Source: Cenarchaeum sp. (lineage in GTDB: Archaea > Thermoproteota > Nitrososphaeria > Nitrososphaerales > Nitrosopumilaceae). From it: DNA of 64,000 bases. The translations under genes were made by a program, and so were the position numbers. The notes below the pieces were generated by a model, which saw only the letters and a program-made list of their open reading frames with translations, had not been told where the DNA came from and did no database searches. The DNA lies in NCBI GenBank assembly GCA_965242695.1, contig CBDESU010000001.1, positions 672,001-736,000 on the forward strand, given 5' to 3'. Positions 779 through 37,511 of this stretch are shown in pieces. Within the stretch, counting starts at the first letter, position 1. Every line of letters starts with the position of its first letter.

Positions 779-922
779 GACTCTACGACTCTACGACTCT
801 ACGACTCTACGACTCTACGACTCTACGACTCTACGACTCTACGACTCTACGACTCTACGACTCTACGACTCTACGACTCTACGACTCTACGACTCTACGA
901 CTCTACGACTCTACGACTCTAC
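779..922. repeat. Perfect tandem repeat (GACTCTAC) x18
   Basis: Direct reading: 144 bp = 18 exact 8-mers, intergenic. Confidence 0.97.
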
Positions 923-1042
923 TATACACCTAGGTCCGCACTGTTCTGACCTCGACACGCTGCCAGCAGGCGACAATCTGGCACAGGGCCGCGGGTGGTC
1001 GAACGTTCGTGACGGCACGAAGCCGCTGGGGGGTGGCCCAGC

Positions 1043-7545: not shown

Positions 7546-8211
7546 TCACGCCCCGCCGCCCCGCTCTTGGCCCCGCCCCGCATTCTCTCCACCAAGCAGG
7601 TCGATCAGCGGCCCGCTCGTCAGCTGAACCCTGATGTGCCCGAACTCGTCGTCGTTGCCCTCGATGTCGGCGAACGCCGCGTCCGACGTGATGATCACGG
7701 AGGCGTTAGCACCCTCGGCGGACGCGTAGTGTATCAGGTCGAACGGCCCGATCCCGCGGTGCCTGTACGTCCGGCTCTTGGCCACGTACACTGCACGCCC
7801 CCTGTGCGTCAGCTCCTTGCCGCACAGGATGACGTAGTCGGAATGGACTTCATCTGCATCTACAATTTCTAGAATACCCTGTTCAATCATGTTGAATATG
7901 ATCCCGATCGCGCGGGCAACGGCCTTGTCCGCATCCGCCTCAACGCTGGCCCGCTCCTCCTCGCTCCCCGACTGGCGCTTGTGCGACATTGTGACCTTCT
8001 TGCGGACGGCCCAGATCAACTCCAGTATGACGGCGTACGTGGTGATCAGGCGGCATCCGCTACGCACAGCCGCATCGAGCACCCTGACCGCATCGGCGTG
8101 GTGGATATCCTCCAAGACCGATGCGGCCACAAACGCGCTGGTCTCGACAAAGGCATCGATGCCGGCAAAGTCGCCAATGTCGACTCCAATGCCATCACTT
8201 GGCGTCGTCAA
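7546..8211 (-). CDS. PIN-domain (VapC-like) protein, cassette 1
   Basis: FVETSAFVA...EDIHH...VILEL...FDLIHYASA...IITSDAAF PIN pattern. TTG start overlaps upstream stop by 17 nt. Confidence 0.8.
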   Translation of the reverse strand: MTTPSDGIGVDIGDFAGIDAFVETSAFVAASVLEDIHHADAVRVLDAAVRSGCRLITTYAVILELIWAVRKKVTMSHKRQSGSEEERASVEADADKAVARAIGIIFNMIEQGILEIVDADEVHSDYVILCGKELTHRGRAVYVAKSRTYRHRGIGPFDLIHYASAEGANASVIITSDAAFADIEGNDDEFGHIRVQLTSGPLIDLLGGENAGRGQERGGGA

Positions 8212-8941
8212 TCTTGACCAACTCGTACCCGTCGGGGGGGCAGTTTCCTCTTATCATCGACACCGTCTCGACGGACGACAGCCCGGGACCTAGCTCCCCG
8301 AACAGATCGTCGATGCACTTTGGCTCCGGCGGAAATACCGGATCGTCGCCGATGGCCTTTCTCCACTCGCGTACTGTTTCAATATTCTTCCTCACGACAT
8401 CCCTGCAGACTTTGCCTCTGTGCCGCATGTCGGACTTGGGCAGGCCCGATCCAGGCGGGTCGGCCGCCCTCAGCCTCGCCCGCAGCGCGTCCGCCTTGGC
8501 CCTGAACGCGGCGATTCTTCCCCTCAGCTTCTCCAAGTCGCCGACCGGTTCGCCGTCCCCGCCGCTCCTGTACGACACGGCTGTGTCGTACAGGATCGCC
8601 CTTGCCTCGCGGTACGCCAAGCGGGTGACATGCATCCCCCCGTCCTCAACCGGCCTGTCTACAATGTCGGCCGCGTCGGCAAAGATGTCCTCCAGGAGGG
8701 ATGCCATCCTCATGCCCGTGTGGTATCCGGACCTCGACGACACCTCCCCCATCCGGGCGGCGATTTTGCCGCACTTTTCCATGTCTAGCAGGCCGAGCGG
8801 ATCGATGAGCGACACGAACAGCTCCCTGAACTCGGCCCTGCCGTCAGTTGTCGCCTTTGAAGCTGTTCCTGCGCCGACCCTGCGGCGCCCGCGGCGGGCC
8901 GCCACCTTGACCTTCTGCTTCTGTCCCTGAGCCACCTGCAC
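8195..8941 (-). CDS. Uncharacterised ~245-aa protein, putative antitoxin partner, cassette 1
   Basis: Four conserved paralogs, each coupled to a PIN gene. C-terminal IDDLFGELGPGLSS.ETVSMIR resembles VapB tails. GTG start inferred by alignment. Confidence 0.7.
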   Translation of the reverse strand: MQVAQGQKQKVKVAARRGRRRVGAGTASKATTDGRAEFRELFVSLIDPLGLLDMEKCGKIAARMGEVSSRSGYHTGMRMASLLEDIFADAADIVDRPVEDGGMHVTRLAYREARAILYDTAVSYRSGGDGEPVGDLEKLRGRIAAFRAKADALRARLRAADPPGSGLPKSDMRHRGKVCRDVVRKNIETVREWRKAIGDDPVFPPEPKCIDDLFGELGPGLSSVETVSMIRGNCPPDGYELVKIDDAK

Positions 8942-9155
8942 GATTCCGGGGCCACACGCACCCGCTATTAACGATTTGCCCTGCGCCGCTGGCGGCGCGG
9001 GCCGGCCGGCAGGGGCCAGCTGCCCACGCAGCCGCCGCATGCCGGATATGTGCCGGACTGCATGCCGGCCCGCGCGGCCTGCCAACCACACTCGGGCCTT
9101 GCGGGGCGCTTGCGGCCGCCCTGAGGCTGGCCATCAGCGGGGATTAGGAGGGCTG

Positions 9156-9794
9156 TCAGCCGCCGTCCCCGCCGCCGAGCAGGTCGATCAGCGGCCCGCC
9201 CGTCAGCTGCACCCTGATGTGCCCGAACTCGCCGCCGCCGCCCTCGATGTCGGCGAACGCCGCGTCCGACGTGATGATCACGGAGGCGCCCGCGCCCTCG
9301 GCGGACGCGTAGTGTATCAGGTCGAACGACCCGATCCCCCTGTGCCTGCACGCTCGGTTATCGGCGACGTACACCGCGTGACCGCTGTGCACGAGAGCAT
9401 TGCCGCACAGCCCGAAACAGTCGTGCGACTTTCCCTTGGCCACTACGATCTTTAGAACGCCCCGACGGACCATGTTGTATATGATTTTGATCGCGCGGGC
9501 AACGGCAGCATCGGCGCTCGCCTCCACACCCGCACGCTCCTCCTCGCTCCCAGACTGGCGCCTGTGCGACGTTATGACCTTCTTGCGGACGGCCCCGATC
9601 AGCTCCAGTATGACGGCGTACGTGGTGATCCGGCGGCATCCGCTGCGCACCGCCGCATCTAGCACCCTGACCGCATCGGCGTGGTGGATATCCTCCAAGA
9701 CCGATGCGGCCACAAACGCGCTGGTCTCGACACAGACGTCGATGGCGACAAGTGCATCGACGTCGACCTCTATGCCGTCACTTGGCGTCGTCAA
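9156..9794 (-). CDS. PIN-domain protein, cassette 2
   Basis: Paralog of 7546..8211. Confidence 0.8.
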   Translation of the reverse strand: MTTPSDGIEVDVDALVAIDVCVETSAFVAASVLEDIHHADAVRVLDAAVRSGCRRITTYAVILELIGAVRKKVITSHRRQSGSEEERAGVEASADAAVARAIKIIYNMVRRGVLKIVVAKGKSHDCFGLCGNALVHSGHAVYVADNRACRHRGIGSFDLIHYASAEGAGASVIITSDAAFADIEGGGGEFGHIRVQLTGGPLIDLLGGGDGG

Positions 9795-10518
9795 TCTTCA
9801 CCAGCTCGTACCCGTCCGGGGGACAGTTGCCCCTCATCATGGACACCGTCTCGGCGGACGACAGCCCTGGCCCTAGCTCCCCGAACAGATCGTCGATGCA
9901 CTTTGGCTCGGGCGGAAATACCGGATCGACGCCGGCGGCCACTCTAGAAGCCCGCACTTTTTCAACATCCTCCTTCCTCACATCCCTGCAGATTCTGCCC
10001 TTGTACAACGTGTCGAGCTTTGGCAGGCCCGATCCGGGAGGGTCGGCCGCCCTCAGCCTCGTCCGCAGCGCGTCCGCCTTGGCCCTGAACGCGGCGATTC
10101 TCCCCCTCAGCTTCTCCAAGTCTCCGACCGGCTCGCCGTCCCCGCCGCCCCTGTACGACACGGCCGTGTCGTACAGGACGGCCCTCGCCTCCCTGTACGC
10201 AATGGTGGTGAGGTGCAGAGCCCCGTCATCTACCGGCCTACCCACGATATCGGACATGTCGGCAAAGATGTCCGCCAAGAGGGATGCCATTCTCACGCCC
10301 ATATGGTATCCGGACCTCGACGACACCTCCCCCATCCGGGCGGCGATCCTGCCGCACTTTTCCATGTCGAGCAGGCCCAGCGGATCGATGAGCGACACGA
10401 ACAGCTCCCGGAACTCGGACTTGCTGTCGACCGTCGCCACCGCAACTGCGCCGCTTCTGCGGCGCCCTTGATCAGCCGTTCTTGCCACCTTCTGCCTCTG
10501 CCCATGCGCCGCCTGCAC
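9778..10518 (-). CDS. Uncharacterised partner protein, cassette 2
   Basis: Paralog of 8195..8941. Confidence 0.7.
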   Translation of the reverse strand: MQAAHGQRQKVARTADQGRRRSGAVAVATVDSKSEFRELFVSLIDPLGLLDMEKCGRIAARMGEVSSRSGYHMGVRMASLLADIFADMSDIVGRPVDDGALHLTTIAYREARAVLYDTAVSYRGGGDGEPVGDLEKLRGRIAAFRAKADALRTRLRAADPPGSGLPKLDTLYKGRICRDVRKEDVEKVRASRVAAGVDPVFPPEPKCIDDLFGELGPGLSSAETVSMMRGNCPPDGYELVKIDDAK

Positions 10519-10908
10519 GACACCGTGGGCCTATGCTCCCGCTATTAGCGATTTGCCCTGCACCGCAGGCGGAGCAGGCGCGGCAGGCAGGGGCGCCCGC
10601 CGCCCGCGCAGCCGCCGCGTGCCGGATATGTGCCGGACTGCATGCCGGCCCGCGCGGCCTCCGATCGCACTCGGGCCTTGCGGCCGTCCTGCGGCTGGCT
10701 ATCCGCGGGGATTAGGAGGGCCGCTCGCCGCCGTTTCAGCCGCCGAGCAGGTCGATGAGCGGCCCGCCCGTCAGCTGCACCCTGATGTGCCCGAACTTGT
10801 CGTCGTTGCCCTCGATGTCGGCGAACGCCGCATCAGACGTGATGATCACGGAGGCGCCCGCGTCCTCGGCGAATGCGTAGTGTACCAGGTCGTATCTATG
10901 AGCTACCC

Positions 10909-10916
10909 TTTATAAA
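10909..10916 (-). promoter_or_regulatory. TATA box TTTATAAA near right end of IS110 A (putative circle-junction promoter)
   Basis: After circularisation it would start 29 nt upstream of the transposase GTG (12814). Confidence 0.5.
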
Positions 10917-11013
10917 GAAAACCGGCCCCGGCCGCCCCTAGGCGTGGTTTTTCACGCATCCGGGCAGAGCCTCCCCTAGGGTGTCGTGTCCCTCTCGGCG
11001 TCCAATGCGGTAT

Positions 11014-11140
11014 ATGGATCGGACATTTATCTATCCGGGGACGAACCCCACTACCGTCTTCATCCATTTGCCAGGGTCACGGCATTTACACACACGGGGA
11101 CTAACCCCATACAGGCACTCGCCGACGAGACCCTGACCAT
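11014..11140 (-). ncRNA. Putative bridge RNA of IS110 element A
   Basis: Two similar stem/internal-loop/GGGG-N5-CCCC hairpin modules. Loops match the target (11110-18 is the reverse complement of 7759-67) and the element end (11028-34 equals 10893-99). Confidence 0.7.
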
Positions 11141-11146
11141 GATGCA

Positions 11147-12814
11147 TCACGCTGCCCTCGCGGGCGCAGATGCGGCCGCGGCCTTGCGCCGGCAGCCCTT
11201 GAACTGCGCACTCCCCTCCGCCATGCAGTTGACAAAGGTGAGGTTCTTCTTGAGCATCCAAAAGACGATGCGGAGCAGCTTGTTCACCGCCGCTATCATG
11301 GCCTTCTTTGCGGGCATCCTCTCGCACAGCCTCTCGTAGTACCTCGTGATGTCCGAGTCGACGTGCCCGACGTGCACAAGCACGGCCTCGCACAGTATCC
11401 ACCTGACGATCTTGCTTCCCGTCTTGGTTATGCGCCCGTGCTTTACAATGTCGGCAGAGCTCCTGTCCGACGGGACCAGCCCAAAGTACGGCGCCAGGGC
11501 GTACGGGCTGCTAAACCGCTCTATGGGGCCTATCCATGCCGCCAGGGCAAGCGCGATGAAGTTGCCAAAGCCCGGAAAGGACAAGAGTAGCTGCGCGGCG
11601 GGGTTGGCCGCCACCATGTCCCTTATCCGCAGGTCGGTCTTTATCACCTGGTCGTCGATGCCCGAGATCATGTCCAGGCACTGGTTGATCCTCCACTCGC
11701 CGAGCCTGCGGAGGTTCGAGACGAACGTGTCCGACCACTTTGCCCCCTCGACCTTGATGGCCTTTTGCAGAAGGATGGCCTGGATGAACACCTTGTACTT
11801 TGCCCTCGCCCGCGTCAGGCGGGCCCTGTGCGACGTGGCCTCCCTCTCCTTCACCGTCTTGTCGTCTGGGACGTAGCACGGGGGGATGCTCTTTATGCGC
11901 AGCAACTCGGCAAGATTCCTGGCATCGACCCTGTCGTTCTTGTTCTTGGACTTGGCGATCAGCGCAGTCTGCAGCGGGTTTGACAGGATCATGTCGAATC
12001 CCATCGCCTCTATGAACCGGTAGACCGCGTACCACACCGACGACGACTCGACAACGCACCTGGTCCTGTCGGGCGGCAGCCCCGCGAAGTACGACCTGAT
12101 GGCATCGAAGCTGTTGATGATTTTGGCCTCCTCTACGATCGTCCCAGCCTCGTCGGATACGGCGATCTGCAGCGTGCGCTTGTGCAGGTCTACCCCCACG
12201 TAGAACATTCCCTCCGACACAGCCGTTCTCTCCATTTCAGCGACCTCCTTTGCCGTCAGGGCCCTGGTGCTTTTCCTGGCCGCTGCCCGCGCCCTTTCCC
12301 CCTTTGCCACAATCCTTTTCTTCATGCCACTGACATTCCGTGACGCCGCGGAACTGCCGCCCCTCTTGGGCTTGGCCGAGGGCCGAGGCTTGGGCTTGGC
12401 CGCTGCCCGCGCCCTTTCCCCCTTTGCCACAATCCTTTTCTTCATGCCACTGACATTCCGTGACGCCGCGGAACTGCCGCCCCTCTTGGGCTTGGCCGAG
12501 GGCCGAGGCTTGGGCTTGGCCGCTGCCCGCGCCCTTTCCCCCTTTGCCACAATCCTTTTCTTCATGCCACTGACATTCCGTGACGCCGCGGAACTGCCGC
12601 CCCTCTTGGGCTTGGCCGAGGGCCGAGGCTTGGGCTTGGCCGAGGGCCGAGGCTTGGGCTTGGCCGCTGCCCGCGGCCTTGCTTCCGTACCTGTGCGTCG
12701 TTGCACGGCCGCGCCCTCGCGGGGGGCCATGTGTATCTTTGCGACGTCGGCCTCGCCGTTCCCAGCGCCCGACTTGGCACGCCCACCGTCTGAATTGCGT
12801 TTCTGGCCCCTCAC
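11147..12814 (-). CDS. IS110-family transposase/recombinase with Lys/Arg/Ala/Pro-rich repeat N-terminal extension
   Basis: YVGVDLHK, VVES, KNDRVDA (DEDD), LLSFPGFG, YFGLVPSDRSS, GRITKTGS. Alternative start ATG near 12235. Confidence 0.9.
   Translation of the reverse strand: MRGQKRNSDGGRAKSGAGNGEADVAKIHMAPREGAAVQRRTGTEARPRAAAKPKPRPSAKPKPRPSAKPKRGGSSAASRNVSGMKKRIVAKGERARAAAKPKPRPSAKPKRGGSSAASRNVSGMKKRIVAKGERARAAAKPKPRPSAKPKRGGSSAASRNVSGMKKRIVAKGERARAAARKSTRALTAKEVAEMERTAVSEGMFYVGVDLHKRTLQIAVSDEAGTIVEEAKIINSFDAIRSYFAGLPPDRTRCVVESSSVWYAVYRFIEAMGFDMILSNPLQTALIAKSKNKNDRVDARNLAELLRIKSIPPCYVPDDKTVKEREATSHRARLTRARAKYKVFIQAILLQKAIKVEGAKWSDTFVSNLRRLGEWRINQCLDMISGIDDQVIKTDLRIRDMVAANPAAQLLLSFPGFGNFIALALAAWIGPIERFSSPYALAPYFGLVPSDRSSADIVKHGRITKTGSKIVRWILCEAVLVHVGHVDSDITRYYERLCERMPAKKAMIAAVNKLLRIVFWMLKKNLTFVNCMAEGSAQFKGCRRKAAAASAPARAA
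12277..12675. repeat. 3 x exact 120-bp repeat plus extra 24-bp subrepeat in the IS110 A 5' region
   Basis: Lines 12301/12421/12541 are identical. In frame it encodes AAAKPKPRPSAKPKRGGSSAASRNVSGMKKRIVAKGERAR. Confidence 0.95.
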
Positions 12815-13227
12815 ACGGTTACATCCTGCCGCCGTCGTCCACCGCGCACCCCTTGTGATCTAGCGCATTGTCGCACATGCCTGCAAAGTCGAGTGGCAGT
12901 CTTTTTTGCTTCATAATCTTTAGTATGCCCTGCTTGGACATGTCATCTGCAACCTTGAACATATGGTAAACGGCTGCATCTGCGCTAGCATCCACGGCCG
13001 CCCGCTCCTCTTCGCTCCCCGACCGGCGCTTGTGCGATGTTGTGACTTTCTTGCGGACTGCGCCGATCGCCTCCAACATGACAGGATGCGATATGACCAG
13101 GTCGCATCCAGTACGCACAGCCGCATCGAACACCCTGATCGCATCGTCGTGGTGCATGTCCTAGGCGATCGTCGCCGCCATGAAGGAGCTGGTGTCGACA
13201 TAGCCGATAATGTCGCCCACCGCGACG

Positions 13228-13974
13228 TCACTTGCCGCTGCCAATCTTGACCATCTCGTACCCTTCGGGGGGCCACTTCCCTCTCTCCATGGCTACCATG
13301 TCGGCCGCCGACAGCCCGCCCCTAAATTCCTCAAATACCTCGTCAAGGCACTTCACCCCTGGAGGAAATATCGGGTCCTCGCCGGCGGCCACGTGATGCG
13401 CGCGTATCTCTTCAATGTCCTCCCTGACGACGTCCCTGCAGACTTTGCCCTTGTACAATGTGTCAAACTTGCGCAGGCCCGATCCGGGCGGATCTGCCGC
13501 CCTCAGCCTCGCGCGCCTTGCGTCGGCCTCTGACCTGAGCACGGCAATCTTCCTCCCAAGCTCCTCCAGGCCGCCGACCGGCTCGTCGTCCCCGCCGCCC
13601 CTGTACGACACGGCCGTGTCGTACAGGGCGGCCCTCATCTCCCTGTAGGCAACGGTGGTCTGGTGCAGCGCCCCGTCCTCGACCGGCCTGTCCACGATGT
13701 CGGCCGCGTCGGCAAAGATGCCTGACAGGAGGGACGACATCCTCACGCCCGCGTGGTATCCGGACCTCGACGACACCTCCCCCATCCGGGCGGCGATCCT
13801 GCCGCACTTTTCCATGTCTAGCAGTTCTGCAGGATCGATGAGCGACACGAACAGCTCCCTGAACTCGGCCCTGCCGTCAGTTGTCGCCTTTGAAGCTGTT
13901 CCTGCGCCGACCCTGCGGCGCCCGCGGCGGGCCGCCACCTTGACCTTCTGCTTCTGTCCCTGAGCCACCTGCAC
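13228..13974 (-). CDS. Uncharacterised partner protein, cassette 3
   Basis: Paralog of 8195..8941, most diverged at the C-terminus. Confidence 0.7.
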   Translation of the reverse strand: MQVAQGQKQKVKVAARRGRRRVGAGTASKATTDGRAEFRELFVSLIDPAELLDMEKCGRIAARMGEVSSRSGYHAGVRMSSLLSGIFADAADIVDRPVEDGALHQTTVAYREMRAALYDTAVSYRGGGDDEPVGGLEELGRKIAVLRSEADARRARLRAADPPGSGLRKFDTLYKGKVCRDVVREDIEEIRAHHVAAGEDPIFPPGVKCLDEVFEEFRGGLSAADMVAMERGKWPPEGYEMVKIGSGK

Positions 13975-14176
13975 GATTCCGGGGCCATACGCACCCGCTA
14001 TTAGCGATTTGCCCTGCGCCGCTGGCGGCGCGGGCCGGCCGGCAGGGGCCAGCTGCCCGCGCAGCCGCCGCATGCCGGATATGTGCCGAACTGCATGCCG
14101 GCCCGCGCGGCCTGCCAACCGCACTCGGGCCTTGCGGGGCGCTTGCGGCCGCCCTGAGGCTGGCCATCCGCGGGGA

Positions 14177-14824
14177 TTAGGAGGGCTGTTCTCCGCCACC
14201 GTCCCCGCCGAGCAGGTCGATGAGCGGCCCGCCCGTCAGCTGCACCCTGATGTGCCCAAATTCGTTGTCGTTGCCCTCGATGTCGGCGAACGCCGCGTCC
14301 GACGTGATGATCACGGAGGCGCCCGCGCCCTCGGCAGACGCGTAGTGGATCAGGTCGAACGGCCCGATCCCCCTGTGCCTGCACGCTCGGTTATCGGCGA
14401 CGTACACCGCGTGACCGCTGTGCACAAGAGCCTTGCCGCACAGCCCGAAATAGTCGTGCGGCTTTTCGACCGCCACGATCTTTAGAACGCCCCGACGGAC
14501 CATGTCGTATATGATTTTGATCGCGCGGGCGACGGCAGCATCGGCGCTCGCCTCCACGCCCGCACGCTCCTCCTCGCTCCCCGACTGGCGCTTGTGCGAC
14601 GTTATGACCTTCTTGCGGACGGCCCCGATCAACTCCAGTATGACGGCGTGCGTGGTGATCAGGCGGCAGCCGCTGCGCACCGCCGCATCTAGCACCCTGA
14701 CCGCATCGGCATGGTGGATGTCCTCCAACACCGACACGGCCACAAACGCGCTGGTCTCGCCAAAGACGTCGATGGCGACAAGTGCATCGATGTCGACCTC
14801 AATATCGTCACTTGGCGTCGTCAA
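14177..14824 (-). CDS. PIN-domain protein, cassette 4
   Basis: Paralog, closest to cassette 2. Confidence 0.8.
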   Translation of the reverse strand: MTTPSDDIEVDIDALVAIDVFGETSAFVAVSVLEDIHHADAVRVLDAAVRSGCRLITTHAVILELIGAVRKKVITSHKRQSGSEEERAGVEASADAAVARAIKIIYDMVRRGVLKIVAVEKPHDYFGLCGKALVHSGHAVYVADNRACRHRGIGPFDLIHYASAEGAGASVIITSDAAFADIEGNDNEFGHIRVQLTGGPLIDLLGGDGGGEQPS

Positions 14825-15548
14825 TCTTCACCAACTCGTACCCGTCCGGGGGACAGTTGCCCCTCATCATGGACACCGTCTCGGCGGACGACAGCCCAGG
14901 CCCGAGCTCCCCGAACAGATCGTCGATGCACTTTGGCTCGGGTGGAAATATTGGATCCTCGCCGGCGGCCTTAAACCACGCGCGCACTTCTTCAATGTCT
15001 TCCCTTGCGACATCCCTGCAGATTCTGCCCTTGTACCACGTGTCGATCTTTGGCAGGCCCGATCCGGGCGGGTCGGCCGCCCTCAATCTCGCCCGCAGCG
15101 CGTCCGCCTTGGCCCTGATCGCGGCGATTTTTCCCCTCAGCTTCTCCAAGTCGCCGACCGGCTCGCCGTCCCCGCCGCCCCTGTACGACACGGCCGTGCC
15201 ATACAGGACTGCCATCGCCTCCCTGTACGCAACGGTGGTGAGGTGCAGCGCCCCGTCCTCTACCGGCCTGCCCACAATGTCGGCCGCATCTGCAAAGATG
15301 TCTGCCAGGAGGGATGCCATCCTCACGCCCATATGGTATCCGGACCTCGACGACACCTCCCCCATCCGGGCGGCGATCCTGCCGCACTTTTCCATGTCGT
15401 GCAGGCCGAGCGGATCGATGAGCGACACGAACATCTCCCTGAACTCGGACTTGCTGTCGACCGTCGCCACCGCACCTGCGCCGCTTCTGCGGCGCCCTTG
15501 ACCAGCCGTTCTTGCCACCTTCTGCCTCTGCCCACGCGCTGCCTGCAC
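14808..15548 (-). CDS. Uncharacterised partner protein, cassette 4
   Basis: Paralog, closest to cassette 2. Confidence 0.7.
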   Translation of the reverse strand: MQAARGQRQKVARTAGQGRRRSGAGAVATVDSKSEFREMFVSLIDPLGLHDMEKCGRIAARMGEVSSRSGYHMGVRMASLLADIFADAADIVGRPVEDGALHLTTVAYREAMAVLYGTAVSYRGGGDGEPVGDLEKLRGKIAAIRAKADALRARLRAADPPGSGLPKIDTWYKGRICRDVAREDIEEVRAWFKAAGEDPIFPPEPKCIDDLFGELGPGLSSAETVSMMRGNCPPDGYELVKIDDAK

Positions 15549-15873
15549 GACACCGTGGGCCTATGCTCCCGCTATTAGCGATTTGCCCTGCGCCGCAGGC
15601 GGCAAAGGCGCGGCAGGCAGGGCCGCCCGCCGCCCGCGCCGCGCCGCCGCATGCCGCGCCCCGCACTGCGCAATCCCTCCGCCGCGCCCCGCACGGGCGC
15701 ATGCGGGCGCCGGACGGCCCCCGTCGGCGCCGCCCATATCCCCTGCGCGGGACCCGGCGCGGCGGCCGGCATGCGGGGGCCCAGCCGCCCGCAGGGGCGC
15801 GGAACGCGCCCGCGCCGCCCCCGATCCGTTTATCAGTGGGCGCCCCGCCCCGCCCGCCGGGCGGCGGCGCGCG

Positions 15874-26963: not shown

Positions 26964-31877
<4,914 letters not shown>

Positions 31878-35872: not shown

Positions 35873-36107
35873 AGTAGGCATCGGGAACCTCTGTATGGTC
35901 GGCGTATATGTAGTGCATGAGCGGCACTCCCTTGCCGGCCTTGGAGCCCTCCTGGTGGGCGCGCCTCGGATCCTTGTCGTGCGCGACAATCTCCCCGTCT
36001 GCCACCGCTATCCACTGGCCGCCGTACCTCTTGTACTCCTCCTCCGACATGTTGCCAAGGAACTCGACATCCTTCATGGGACTTCTATGGAGATCGTTCT
36101 CTGTCAT
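35859..36107 (-). CDS. DUF5678-like protein, cassette 1
   Basis: YKRYGGQWIAVADGEIVAHDKD. Confidence 0.78.
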   Translation of the reverse strand: MTENDLHRSPMKDVEFLGNMSEEEYKRYGGQWIAVADGEIVAHDKDPRRAHQEGSKAGKGVPLMHYIYADHTEVPDAYYVYD

Positions 36108-36251
36108 GGCGGGCCGTGGCGGAGGTCGATACTTAAGGCTTGCGCAGTGCGGCACGGGAGTATATAAGGAGCAAACGACACTGGCTTGAAATCCTGCACC
36201 TACGCGGCGTTCATGCTTGAACCCATGTAAACCCCCTGGGGCGCGCCGGCC

Positions 36252-36378
36252 TGTGGTCGAGCGACCCCTCAAACGGCATGGGCCAACAGAGCCCTCATGC
36301 TTGAATGGGGCAGTCCGAGCTGCTGTGTTACTGGGCCGTAGAGCCCTGATAGGTGAGTGCAGCTTACGACCGACCACA
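36252..36378 (+). ncRNA. Putative bridge RNA of IS110 element B
   Basis: Closing stem TGTGGTCG/CGACCACA encloses two loop modules. 36295-303 TCATGCTTG equals the target flank; 36349-55 ATAGGTG equals the right end plus core. Confidence 0.78.
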
Positions 36379-36401
36379 CGTATGATAAAGGGGGTGATAA
36401 T

Positions 36402-37511
36402 GTGAAATATATTGGAATAGACATCGCTAAAGAGACCAACCATGCATGCATCATGGACCGCAAGGGCAAGGTTCTCGACCGCGCCATGTTTGGCAACACG
36501 GCCGAGGGCACACGCAGGTTCCTCAAGGCAGCGCGCAGGGAGCACGGCAAGTTCGTCGTCGGCTGCGAGGCCACGGGGTACATGTGGGCAAAGTTGTGCG
36601 ACATGTGCGCGAAGGAGAATGTGGAGTTCAAGCTTGGCAGTCCGTACAAGATGCGGATCATATGGATGAGCTCCAACAAGAACGACAAGAACGATGCCGA
36701 AAAGATCGCGGATCTGCTAAGGCGCGACGCCTTTCCGGCGTGCCACCTGGGCGACCAGGAGACGCGCGCGCTGAGGGACATGATGCGCGCCATCATCGCA
36801 CTCGTACAGGACAGGACGAAGGTCTGCAACAGGCTTCGCGCCCTGCTCGTAAAGTACGATTTACGCCTAAAAGCGACCAAGATCTACTCGAACAAAGCCA
36901 TTACCCAGCTCCGCGGCACAACGCTAGGCAACCACGTCGACAACACGAACATCCAGCGCCTCGTCAAGCAGCTAGAGTTCTTCAACCGCGAGATCGGCCT
37001 TGCAGAGAAGGATGTTCTCCGCGAGGCGGCAAACTCAAAGTTTGCCCCGACGGTGCGCCGGATCGTCAGCATGACTGGCGTCGACGCGTACTCTGCGCTG
37101 CTGATTTCAGCAGAGCTGGACGGCATAGATCGATTCTCGGATCCCAAGAAGATTATCTCGACGGTAGGCATGTGCCCAAGCGTGCACCAGTCGGGAGACT
37201 CTCTACGCCATGGCGGCATGAAAAAGCTCGACGTTAACCGCAAGCTCAACTGGATAATGATTCAGGTGGCATCAGTGGCAGTCCGCTACGACGACCACCT
37301 GAAGAAGTACTATGAGCACGTCAAGAAGCGACACGGCGGCAAGCACGTGATCGCGGTCACACACGTGGCCAACAAGATGTTGCGGATAATGTGGGCCATG
37401 GAGCGAGACCATACGCTATATTGGTACCGCAACGAAAAGCTGTACCAGAGCAAGCTGGCAAAACTCGACAAGGCGATGCGTTCCGACACGACTCAGAAGA
37501 TCCAGGGGTAG
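36402..37511 (+). CDS. IS110-family transposase/recombinase
   Basis: YIGIDIAK, CEATG, KNDKNDA, SMTGV, GMCPSVHQSG. GGGGGTGA SD-like sequence before GTG 36402. Confidence 0.95.
   Translation: MKYIGIDIAKETNHACIMDRKGKVLDRAMFGNTAEGTRRFLKAARREHGKFVVGCEATGYMWAKLCDMCAKENVEFKLGSPYKMRIIWMSSNKNDKNDAEKIADLLRRDAFPACHLGDQETRALRDMMRAIIALVQDRTKVCNRLRALLVKYDLRLKATKIYSNKAITQLRGTTLGNHVDNTNIQRLVKQLEFFNREIGLAEKDVLREAANSKFAPTVRRIVSMTGVDAYSALLISAELDGIDRFSDPKKIISTVGMCPSVHQSGDSLRHGGMKKLDVNRKLNWIMIQVASVAVRYDDHLKKYYEHVKKRHGGKHVIAVTHVANKMLRIMWAMERDHTLYWYRNEKLYQSKLAKLDKAMRSDTTQKIQG

What the first reader, a model, noticed from the sequence alone, without database searches (positions are those of the whole stretch)
10893..11146. 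IS110 element A carries a 3'-encoded bridge-like RNA whose guide matches the PIN toxin gene
Seen (minus strand, just after the transposase stop): module 1 is stem-GAGTGCCTGTAT-GGGGttagtCCCC-GTGTGTGTAAAT-stem and module 2 is stem-GAAGACGGTAGT-GGGGttcgtCCCC-GGATAGATAAAT-stem. GTGCCTGTA matches 9/9 the homologous insertion position in intact PIN copy 1 (7759-67). GTGTGTA partly matches the other flank GGATGTA. ATAGATA matches the element right end plus TA core, and ACGGT matches the left end. PIN copies 2 and 4 carry GTGCCTGCA (core altered). The loop architecture (12-nt 3' loops ending core+AAT/AGT) is shared with element B although the RNA sits at the opposite end. Caveat: the register of the 5' target guide differs by 1 nt from the other three loops.
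Basis: partly seen in the sequence, partly recalled or inferred. Interest (0 to 1): 0.8.

Follow-up and report, generated by a model that had tools for sequence, protein, structure and literature searches.

The report
Archaeal IS1111-type element's bridge RNA
A mobile element in an ammonia-oxidizing archaeon from sponges carries, just after its transposase gene, a two-loop guide RNA of the known bridge/seekRNA kind, whose loops match the element's own ends and the site in a PIN-domain gene where it inserted.

Summary
Element A (window 10893-12821, minus strand) is an IS110-family element of IS1111 type. The ~137 nt after the transposase stop fold into two stem/internal-loop/hairpin modules. 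That architecture recurs in 15 aligned relatives (33-45% protein identity): 96% of cells paired, 15 of 25 pairs compensatory, 0 of 500 shuffles as good. Across relatives, module 1 loops match each copy's own flanks (0 of 20,000 permutations) and module 2 loops match the element ends.

For element A, a sponge-metagenome contig from another study gives the empty site: GGATG-TA-CAGGTAC. The 5' target loop predicts TA-CAGGCAC, so 6 of 7 positions are Watson-Crick and one is rG.dT. In another metagenome, all covered contigs of a close variant carry a one-base guide change, and one contig's flank, CAGGCGC, fits it 7 of 7.

The occupied allele lacks the 24 bp that held the matched half-site; they are bounded by two TAC repeats. 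This explains why the real right flank does not match.

A 3' location of the RNA is already published for the IS1111 group. This is therefore a new, archaeal member of a known kind. Expression and activity are untested.

The parts
10893..12821 (-). Element A: body 10895-12819 (1925 bp) flanked by TA at 12821-12820 (left) and 10894-10893 (right). Single copy in this genome.
   Evidence: Junctions found by alignment to intact paralogues. A contig of run X11 joins 10894 to 12820 and skips 1925 bases. Only one DNA match in the own genome.
11147..12235 (-). Transposase gene, 362 aa, DEDD/Ser type. The C-terminal motif reads GLVPSDRSSA.
   Evidence: PF01548 at 4.7e-19 and PF02371 at 2.8e-20. NF033542 'IS110 family RNA-guided transposase' at 8.8e-60. 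Motif found. The nearest solved chains are the ISCro4 and IS621 transposases, E about 2e-10, C-terminal part only.
11004..11140 (-). Bridge/seekRNA-like element with two modules.
   Evidence: Covariance model R1 matches here at 114.3 bits, E 2.7e-21, and nowhere else in the genome. The single-sequence fold has z = -2.70.
11109..11120 (-). Module 1, 5' loop: right-target guide (GAGTGCCTGTAT). Its reverse complement reads A-TA-CAGGCAC and pairs with the top strand right of the core.
   Evidence: It matches PIN copy 1 at 7 of 7 plus TA. It matches the empty allele CAGGTAC at 6 of 7, the seventh being rG.dT. The X10 variant has a base change at 11117 and a flank CAGGCGC. Relatives: 0 of 20,000 permutations reach the observed sum.
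11084..11095 (-). Module 1, 3' loop: left-target guide (GTGTGTG), then TA, then AA, then T. It has the same sense as the left flank, so it pairs with the bottom strand.
   Evidence: The real left flank CAGGATG matches at 3 of 6. Relatives' own flanks average 3.6 of 6 and cross pairings 1.36. The two bases after TA equal left-end bases 1-2 in 16 of 20 rows; A matches one base, AA against AC.
11050..11061 (-). Module 2, 5' loop: right-donor guide (GAAGACGGTAGT). ACGGT is the reverse complement of left-end bases 1-5 (ACCGT).
   Evidence: 5 of 5 here. In relatives the loop follows left-end variants: GTCAT in L024 and ATCAT in L028.
11025..11036 (-). Module 2, 3' loop: left-donor guide (GGATAGA), then TA, then AA, then T. 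It matches the right end ATAGA plus TA.
   Evidence: 5 of 6 here. In relatives the loop reads ATAGA or ATGGA together with the right end.
10909..10916 (-). TTTATAAA box, 14 nt inside the right end and pointing outward. Candidate archaeal TATA box that would drive transcription across the RE-TA-LE junction of a circular form (inferred).
   Evidence: An A/T-rich box lies at the same distance from the end in all 14 right ends listed. No expression data.
12782..12791 (-). Left-end internal box AGACGGTGGG (left-end positions 29-38). It repeats the donor 5' loop and is complementary to the left terminus.
   Evidence: 8 of 10 identical to the loop. A box AGATGGT... lies at left-end positions 28-40 in most of the 15 elements. 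Function unknown.
12277..12649 (-). Three tandem copies of a 120-bp unit between the left end and the transposase start. They make the upstream non-coding region 584 nt long.
   Evidence: Family D15, also visible. No relative of the element except L014 has repeats there.
12819..13157 (-). N-terminal fragment of PIN paralogue 3. It ends in a stop made by the core TA plus the first A of the element.
10735..10892 (-). C-terminal fragment of PIN paralogue 3. It starts 24 nt further into the gene than the insertion point.
7759..7767 (+). Intact homologous site in PIN copy 1 (GTGCCTGTA, the reverse complement of TA-CAGGCAC).
   Evidence: Copy 1 is a PIN-domain protein, PF01850 at 7e-12.

Best explanation
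Element A is an IS1111-type member of the IS110 family living in an ammonia-oxidizing archaeon. It encodes a DEDD/Ser recombinase. Directly after the stop codon lies a ~137-nt bridge (seek) RNA with a target-binding module and a donor-binding module.

By analogy with IS621 and the IS1111 seekRNAs, the mechanism would run as follows (inferred). The element excises or copies out as a circle that joins RE-TA-LE. Module 2 holds this junction: its 5' strand pairs with left-end bases 1-5 on the top strand, and its 3' strand pairs with the right end plus TA on the bottom strand. Module 1 holds the target: its 5' strand pairs with TA plus 7 nt to the right on the top strand, and its 3' strand pairs with 3-5 nt to the left plus TA on the bottom strand. 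The recombinase then exchanges strands at the TA.

Shown here:
- the fold is conserved;
- loops and DNA co-vary across relatives;
- the empty site in PIN paralogue 3 reads GGATG-TA-CAGGTAC and fits the guides;
- a close variant carries one changed guide base, and a flank read from that run fits the change.

Inferred: that the RNA is made, that it binds the recombinase, and the chemistry.

The occupied allele then lost, or lost at the same time, the 24 bp to the right of the element. Those 24 bp are bounded by two TAC repeats. Most likely this was a small microhomology deletion.
For: 1. Family. PF01548 and PF02371. NF033542 above its cut-off.

2. Structure. RNAalifold on 15 sequences gives 25 pairs, 15 with compensatory change. 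96.0% of 375 cells are paired against 86.6% in shuffles. The covariation score is 0.408 against 0.222, reached by 0 of 500 shuffles. Sliding the partners gives at most 47% paired.

3. Association. Model R1 hits once in the own genome, at the element. It hits in 13 of 100 relatives' genomes, 12 of which also have a transposase relative.

4. Guides against flanks, 16 representative elements. The summed right-target score is 82 and the left-target score 56; neither is reached in 20,000 permutations. The left-end score is reached in 198 of 20,000 and the right-end score in 33 of 20,000. Among all 19 insertions, 8 have at least 6 of 7 right-target matches, against 4% of 328 cross pairings.

5. Element A itself. 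Run X11 (a different study) holds a contig that joins 10894 to 12820 with 22 letters between and no mismatch in the 54 and 281 flanking letters. This gives the empty site. In run X10 every covered contig has a change at 11117 that turns the predicted target into CAGGCGC. A 406-nt contig there continues from the right end into CAGGCGCAAGATG.

6. IS1111 traits. The RNA lies in the right end. The top-strand match lies 5' of the bottom-strand match. The motif G[LIV]xPxxxxS[AG] is present in 14 of 14 elements. Subterminal inverted repeats of 5-8 bp are present in the 13 relatives (PMC11187229 sections 6 and 9; PMC11208160).
Against: - No RNA data: no listed run is on record as RNA.
- No Rfam family reaches its threshold.
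- The real right flank matches only 2 of 7, and the left-target match is only 3 of 6.
- The subterminal repeat of A is poor: 4 exact, 5 of 7.
- The upstream non-coding region of A (584 nt) is longer than the downstream one (254 nt), which is unlike the IS1111 rule.
- Several relatives have weak matches: L026 at 3/7 and 1/6, L009 at 3/7 and 2/6, and the right-target guide of L014 at 3/7.
- The right-target score took the best of three registers, applied to the controls too.
- The copies come from few genomes and are related, so the permutation figures overstate independence.
- In run X6 the variant guide predicts CTTGCGC. Its right-end contig lies on the window down to 10888, and the letters of its flank were not shown, so this case is open and may disagree.
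- In X10 the guide and the flank lie on different short contigs.
Confidence: 0.87

Rival explanations
1. The conserved structure is only a 3' UTR or terminator element of the transposase mRNA. Target choice is made by the protein, and the loop/flank matches are chance.
For: The 281-nt stretch is no more stable than shuffles (z = 0.19). A T-run follows the structure. The real right flank of A does not match the guide.
Against: A terminator does not need internal loops that change together with the flanks and the ends. The right- and left-target sums were reached in 0 of 20,000 permutations. The base change at 11117 fits a flank CAGGCGC read in the same run. Donor loops follow left-end and right-end variants.
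Confidence: 0.04
2. The 24 bp were already missing from PIN copy 3 before the element arrived. The true target would then be GGATG-TA-CGACCTG, and the match to CAGGCAC is a coincidence with paralogues.
For: The loss is in frame (8 codons). Copy 3 is the most diverged paralogue, 70-82% identical in its N-terminal part. Some relatives also sit at poorly matching sites.
Against: The empty allele, with flanks identical to the window, still has the 24 bp. Under this rival the guide would fit the site at chance level (2 of 7), while it fits the deleted stretch at 6 of 7 plus a wobble, in the exact register used by L022, L027 and L028. A fixed-register 7-mer match has a chance of about 6e-5 (own arithmetic).
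Confidence: 0.05
3. The element is a decayed, inactive relic. Its RNA is a fossil that no longer guides anything in this genome.
For: It is a single copy. It has a poor subterminal repeat, an odd 3 x 120-bp repeat in its left end, and it lost its right half-site, which would block precise excision. In the genome, 12 sites match TG-TA-CAGGYAC and none is occupied (the control pattern gave 14).
Against: The transposase frame is open over 362 aa and all four loops are intact. Close variants (about 92-99% identical contigs) sit next to different flanks in runs X6 and X10, so the lineage moved recently.
Confidence: 0.25

Closest known systems
IS1111-family seekRNAs (ISEc11, ISPa11, ISKpn4, ISPst6; Siddiquee et al. 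2024, PMC11187229: abstract and sections 6 and 9 read)
   Same: The non-coding RNA lies downstream of the transposase gene. [quoted passage not shown] The elements have subterminal inverted repeats and a C-terminal GL-P----S(t)G-type motif.
   Different: The host is an archaeon. The motif ends in SA in 13 of 14 elements. The subterminal repeats are short (5-8 bp, and only 4 in A). The core is TA. Element A also has a long upstream non-coding region.
IS621 bridge RNA (Durrant et al. 2024, PMC11208160, passages read; Hiraizumi et al. 2024, PMC11208158, passages read)
   Same: Two internal loops, one for the target and one for the donor. Each loop reads the bottom strand on the left and the top strand on the right of a 2-nt core. 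Extra 'handshake' bases are present. G.T pairs are tolerated in the IS621 structure.
   Different: The IS621 RNA is encoded in the left end, upstream of the gene. Its left guide precedes its right guide, its core is CT, and its handshake bases sit beside the right guides. Here the order is reversed, and the two extra bases follow the core on the left-guide strands. Protein similarity is limited to the C-terminal domain (E 1.9e-10).
ISHvo10 (named in PMC11187229 section 6 as a diverged element with long non-coding regions both upstream and downstream)
   Same: Like element A, it has long non-coding regions on both sides of the gene. I recall that it comes from a haloarchaeon; no call showed this.
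   Different: Only the name and that one sentence were seen. No sequence was compared.
ISPpu9 with the Ssr9 small RNA downstream of its transposase gene (PMC12288879, abstract in the search listing only)
   Same: An IS110-family element with a small RNA gene after the transposase gene and site-specific insertion.
   Different: It is bacterial and targets REP sequences. Details were not read.

Membership tests
IS110 family (DEDD transposase) | [quoted passage not shown] | tested here: met
   E 4.7e-19 and 2.8e-20. NF033542 at 202.6 bits against a cut-off of 140.
IS1111 group | Guide RNA and the longer non-coding region lie downstream of the gene, in the right end | tested here: met
   The RNA lies at 11004-11140, right after the stop. 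Caveat: in A the upstream non-coding region (584 nt, including 3 x 120-bp repeats) is longer than the downstream one (254 nt). By my reading, the relatives have about 100-150 nt upstream and about 230 nt downstream.
IS1111 group | Subterminal inverted repeats of 7-17 bp | tested here: inconclusive
   Longest exact inverted repeat is 5-8 bp in the 13 relatives, at left-end position 5-7 and right-end position 3-5. In A it is only 4 bp (TGAG; 5 of 7 imperfect).
IS1111 group | C-terminal motif GL-P----S(t)G | tested here: met
   G[LIV]xPxxxxS[AG] in 14 of 14 elements. A reads GLVPSDRSSA. The last residue is A in 13 and G in 1. The paper notes TA as an occasional variant.
IS1111 group | Transposase branches with IS1111 transposases in a tree | not tested
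Bridge RNA / seekRNA | Conserved structure with two internal loops closed by stems | tested here: met
   25 pairs, 15 compensatory, 96% of cells paired, reached by 0 of 500 shuffles.
Bridge RNA / seekRNA | One loop is complementary to both strands of the target around the core | tested here: met
   Relatives: 0 of 20,000 permutations for either side. A: the empty site fits the right guide at 6 of 7 plus rG.dT and the left guide at 3 of 6. The X10 variant guide fits a flank from that run at 7 of 7.
Bridge RNA / seekRNA | The other loop is complementary to the element's two ends around the same core | tested here: met
   A: left end 5 of 5, right end 5 of 6. Permutations reach the sums in 198 and 33 of 20,000. 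The ends are conserved, so this test is weaker.
Bridge RNA / seekRNA | The RNA is expressed and bound by the transposase, and is needed for transposition | not testable with these tools
   No listed run is on record as RNA. No experiment was possible.
Rfam families | Match to a curated covariance model | tested here: not met
   No match at gathering score in the window. Only chance-level matches at E of 2 or more in 10850-11200.

The most novel reading that the evidence does not exclude
The loss of 24 bp is not a later accident but part of the insertion. The right-target guide docked at TA(1)-CAGGTAC. The left-target guide GUGUGUG docked 24 bp further on, at GGCGCG-TA(2), through three G-C and two U.G pairs. 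The two strand exchanges then used different TA cores, and the element replaced the 22 bp between them. If so, bridge recombinases can make insertion-with-deletion ('replacement') events in nature.
Probability: 0.07. Interest if true: 0.7.

Novelty: new member of a known kind. Interest (0 to 1): 0.4.

Why it matters
Bridge/seekRNA-guided recombinases are being developed as programmable genome-editing tools, and the cases studied so far are bacterial. This work defines a family of such elements in ammonia-oxidizing archaea. It was found in 13 of 100 related genomes searched, with up to 32 RNA copies in one genome.

The family has a compact ~137-nt RNA, a TA core, and a clear rule set for all four loops. 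It also shows natural evidence of retargeting: one guide base changed in a variant, and a flank read in that run fits the change. An empty and an occupied allele of the same gene are both available.

The conserved outward-facing TATA-like box at the right end suggests how an archaeal host could supply the junction promoter known from bacterial relatives.

None of this changes the known principle. It extends that principle to another domain of life and provides testable material.

Tried and rejected
- Rfam: no match at gathering score for the window. Permissive search of 10850-11200 gave only chance matches.
- Other copies in the own genome: none by DNA. By protein there are three distant IS110-family genes at 26-30% identity.
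- Genome-contig scan: one distant bacterial hit at 28% identity. Metagenome-contig scan: five hits at 27-32% identity. None was close enough to use.
- The search for homologous proteins found closer proteins at 63-95% identity (P0002-P0009).
- Expression: no RNA holder was listed.
- Parts of the stretch without contig cover in runs X5, X6, X10 and X11 (for example 12364-12615) were not interpreted.
- Genome-wide count of TG-TA-CAGGYAC: 12 sites against 14 for the control pattern. This says nothing about preference.
- Handshake of the module 2, 3' loop with the right flank: only 4 of 20 rows match fully. Too weak to claim.
- Left-guide fit to GGCGCG-TA(2) with wobble: about 1 in 32 by chance (own arithmetic). 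Kept only as the novel case.
- Supplements of the papers are closed. Durrant et al.'s Supplementary Table 5 and Extended Data Fig. 10 may already list archaeal or similar IS1111 bridge RNAs, and I could not see them.
- Claim of 'not in print': 0 papers hold both 'bridge RNA' and 'Thaumarchaeota'. One paper holds 'bridge RNA', 'IS110', 'archaeal' and 'TATA', the TIGR-Tas paper, which I did not read. The six-term search listed none in its first 15 of 1,996 that holds 'bridge RNA' together with a thaumarchaeal term.

Full report
**What is there**

On the minus strand an open frame of 362 aa (12235-11147) has both IS110-family domains (PF01548 and PF02371). It scores 202.6 bits against NCBIfam NF033542 'IS110 family RNA-guided transposase', whose cut-off is 140.

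The element interrupts the third of four tandem units of about 1583 bp. Each unit holds a gene on the minus strand. Copies 1 and 2 of that gene are PIN-domain proteins (PF01850, E 7e-12 and 1.2e-8).

Alignment with the intact copies places the junctions at ...GGATG-TA|ACCGTG (left, TA at 12821-12820) and ...CATAGA-TA|CGACC (right, TA at 10894-10893). The element is a single copy in a genome of 3.89 Mb. That genome has an archaeal SSU rRNA (1450 bits) and an archaeal AmoA (E 2e-118, with 0 of 14 control genomes matching). The runs that hold the stretch and carry an uncoded label are labelled sponge metagenomes or, for one, metagenome.

**The observation**

The two modules are:
- Module 1: stem, GAGTGCCTGTAT, hairpin, GTGTGTGTAAAT, stem.
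- Module 2: stem, GAAGACGGTAGT, hairpin, GGATAGATAAAT, stem.

The 137-nt core folds with z = -2.70. The wider 281 nt do not (z = 0.19). GTGCCTGTA sits at 7759-7767 in copy 1, and GTGCCTGCA sits in copies 2 and 4.

**Is the fold real?**

Transposase relatives at 33-45% identity occur in 13 of 100 related genomes. After their stop codons the same architecture is visible.

- RNAalifold on 15 of them, chosen from 18. I dropped L009, L024 and L028 because a longer hairpin had truncated them in my extraction. The result is 25 pairs in five helices, 15 with compensatory change.
- Pair counting: 96.0% of 375 cells paired, covariation score 0.408 against 0.222 in shuffles, reached by 0 of 500 shuffles. 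Sliding the 3' partners gives 35-47% paired.
- A covariance model built from the alignment matches the own genome once, at 11004-11140. It matches 13 of 100 related genomes, 12 of which also have the transposase.

**Do the loops read DNA?**

I cut out the four loops, the two ends and the two flanks for 21 insertions, by coordinates. I take the transposase sense as the top strand.

- Module 1, 5' loop: its reverse complement reads the core and the right flank.
- Module 1, 3' loop: it reads, in the same sense, the left flank, then TA, then the first two bases of the left end.
- Module 2, 5' loop: its reverse complement reads left-end bases 1-5.
- Module 2, 3' loop: it reads the right end plus TA.

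With 16 representative elements, the summed matches to each element's own flanks were never reached in 20,000 permutations, on either side. For the conserved ends the sums were reached in 198 and 33 of 20,000. Of 19 insertions, 8 have at least 6 of 7 right-flank matches, against 4% of 328 cross pairings.

Examples of co-variation:
- Right ends ATAGA or ATGGA go with the matching loop.
- Left ends GTCAT (L024) and ATCAT (L028) go with the matching loop.
- The two bases after TA in module 1 read GC where the left end starts GC (L014) and AT where it starts AT (L028).

Weak cases exist: L026, L009, L008, and the right guide of L014. The right-flank score used the best of three registers, in the controls too. 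Copies are related and come from few genomes, so the permutation figures are generous.

**Element A itself**

Its real right flank (CGACCTG) fits the guide at 2 of 7. Its left flank fits at 3 of 6, which is typical of true sites in the family (own mean 3.6, cross mean 1.36). The guide fits paralogue 1 at 7 of 7.

Laying contigs of four runs on 10600-13100 resolved this.

- Run X11. This run comes from a different study than the best holders. An 873-nt contig lies on 10841-10894 and 12820-13100 without a single difference. It skips the 1925-bp element and has 22 other letters between. Read in gene sense, the empty allele is GGATG-TA-CAGGTACCGCGGAATCGGCGCG-TA-CGACC, an open PIN frame. The site next to the first TA fits the right guide at 6 of 7, and the seventh position is an rG.dT pair. 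Such pairs are seen in the IS621 complex (PMC11208158, passage read).
- Run X10. Every contig that covers 11117 has the other base. This turns the predicted target from CAGGCAC into CAGGCGC. The 406-nt contig that carries the right end runs on into CAGGCGCAAGATG, a 7 of 7 fit. The guide and the flank lie on different short contigs.
- Runs X6 and X10. Left-end contigs continue into flanks unlike the window's, so the lineage has moved.
- Run X6, open case. The guide differs at three bases and predicts CTTGCGC. Its right-end contig lies on the window down to 10888, and the rest of its flank was not printed. I cannot say whether it fits.

**The missing 24 bp**

The occupied allele keeps the left side of the first TA and the right side of a second TA 24 bp further on. 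What is lost starts with the matched half-site and is bounded by TAC...TAC.

- A deletion before insertion would leave the guide fitting the site at chance level while it fits the deleted stretch. I rate that at about 5%.
- A microhomology deletion after insertion is the simplest reading.
- A coupled event that used two TA cores is possible. The left guide could pair with GGCGCG next to the second TA if two U.G pairs are allowed, but that has about a 1 in 32 chance, and two sites 24 bp apart would be hard to bring together. I keep it as the novel case at 7%.

**Comparison with what is known**

- Durrant et al. report that the IS110 family splits into IS110 and IS1111 groups. IS1111 members have short left ends, long right ends and longer subterminal repeats. 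A bridge RNA was predicted in 93% of IS1111 elements, within the right end (PMC11208160, passages read).
- Siddiquee et al. show that the downstream non-coding region of IS1111 members gives a seekRNA that co-purifies with the transposase. Its top-strand match lies 5' of its bottom-strand match, which is the reverse of the IS110 type (PMC11187229, abstract and sections 6 and 9 read).
- Element A and its relatives share these traits: the RNA location, the order of the matches, a G[LIV]xPxxxxS[AG] motif in 14 of 14, and subterminal repeats of 5-8 bp in 13 relatives (only 4 in A).
- Archaeal IS110-family recombinases are known as proteins: 662 are reported in the preprint 10.1101/2024.06.21.599552 (passages read).
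- I found no paper that holds 'bridge RNA' together with 'Thaumarchaeota'. The supplements that might list such RNAs are closed.

The finding is therefore a new, archaeal member of a known kind.

**Extra features**

- All 14 right ends listed carry an A/T-rich box ending about 14 nt before the terminal TA and facing outward. In an archaeon this looks like a TATA box. It would start transcripts a few bases into the left end once the ends are joined, the counterpart of the junction promoter of bacterial relatives. This is inference only.
- The left end carries an internal box (12782-12791 in A) that repeats the donor 5' loop and is complementary to the left terminus.
- A has three 120-bp tandem repeats between the left end and the gene.

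**Verdict**

The mechanism is inferred by homology of architecture, together with natural co-variation and an empty site. Interest is moderate, because the principle and the 3' location are already published.

Noticed in passing
window 10892/10893 against the empty allele in run X11: The occupied allele of PIN copy 3 lacks 24 bp directly to the right of the element. They are bounded by two TAC repeats and contain the half-site that the right-target guide fits. The loss is in frame.
   Followed up: partly
window 10909-10916 (minus strand) and the right ends of 13 related loci: An outward-facing TTTATAAA-like box lies at a fixed distance (about 14 nt) from the terminal TA in all 14 right ends listed. 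It is a candidate archaeal TATA box for a circle-junction promoter.
   Followed up: partly
window 12782-12791 (minus strand); left-end positions 28-40 in relatives: A box AGA(C/T)GGT... inside the left end repeats the donor 5' loop of the RNA and is complementary to the left terminus. It follows the terminus in A (ACCGT/ACGGT) and in L028 (ATCAT/ATGAT). Function unknown.
   Followed up: partly
window 12277-12649: Three tandem 120-bp units lie between the left end and the transposase start. A contig of run X5 lacks 24 nt at 12605. Contigs of the X6 and X10 variants leave the window sequence at 12351. The same-genus relative L014 also has tandem repeats at this place.
   Followed up: no
window 7546-15650: Four tandem units of about 1583 bp. 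Each holds a PIN-domain gene and a 298-323-aa ORF with no Pfam or NCBIfam match. Whether they form toxin-antitoxin pairs was not tested.
   Followed up: no
window 36399-37418 (+), upstream region 36000-36400: Element B is a second IS110-family transposase at 26% identity to A. Model R1 does not match it. Its upstream region holds TCATGCTTGAA twice. Not analysed.
   Followed up: no
L008, L014, L028: Irregular copies in relatives. In L008 about 30 nt of the right flank also stand before the left end. L014 and L028 carry a second copy of the last 15 nt and about 51 nt of the right end.
   Followed up: no
genomes G046 and G022: G046 has 32 matches to the RNA model but 4 transposase matches at E <= 1e-40. 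G022 has 20 and 13. Only 20 of 76 and 20 of 37 protein candidates were scored, so an excess of RNA-only copies is possible but not shown.
   Followed up: no
window 779-930 and 30438-30797: An 8-bp microsatellite, GACTCTAC repeated about 18 times, and a long run with 9-bp periodicity.
   Followed up: no
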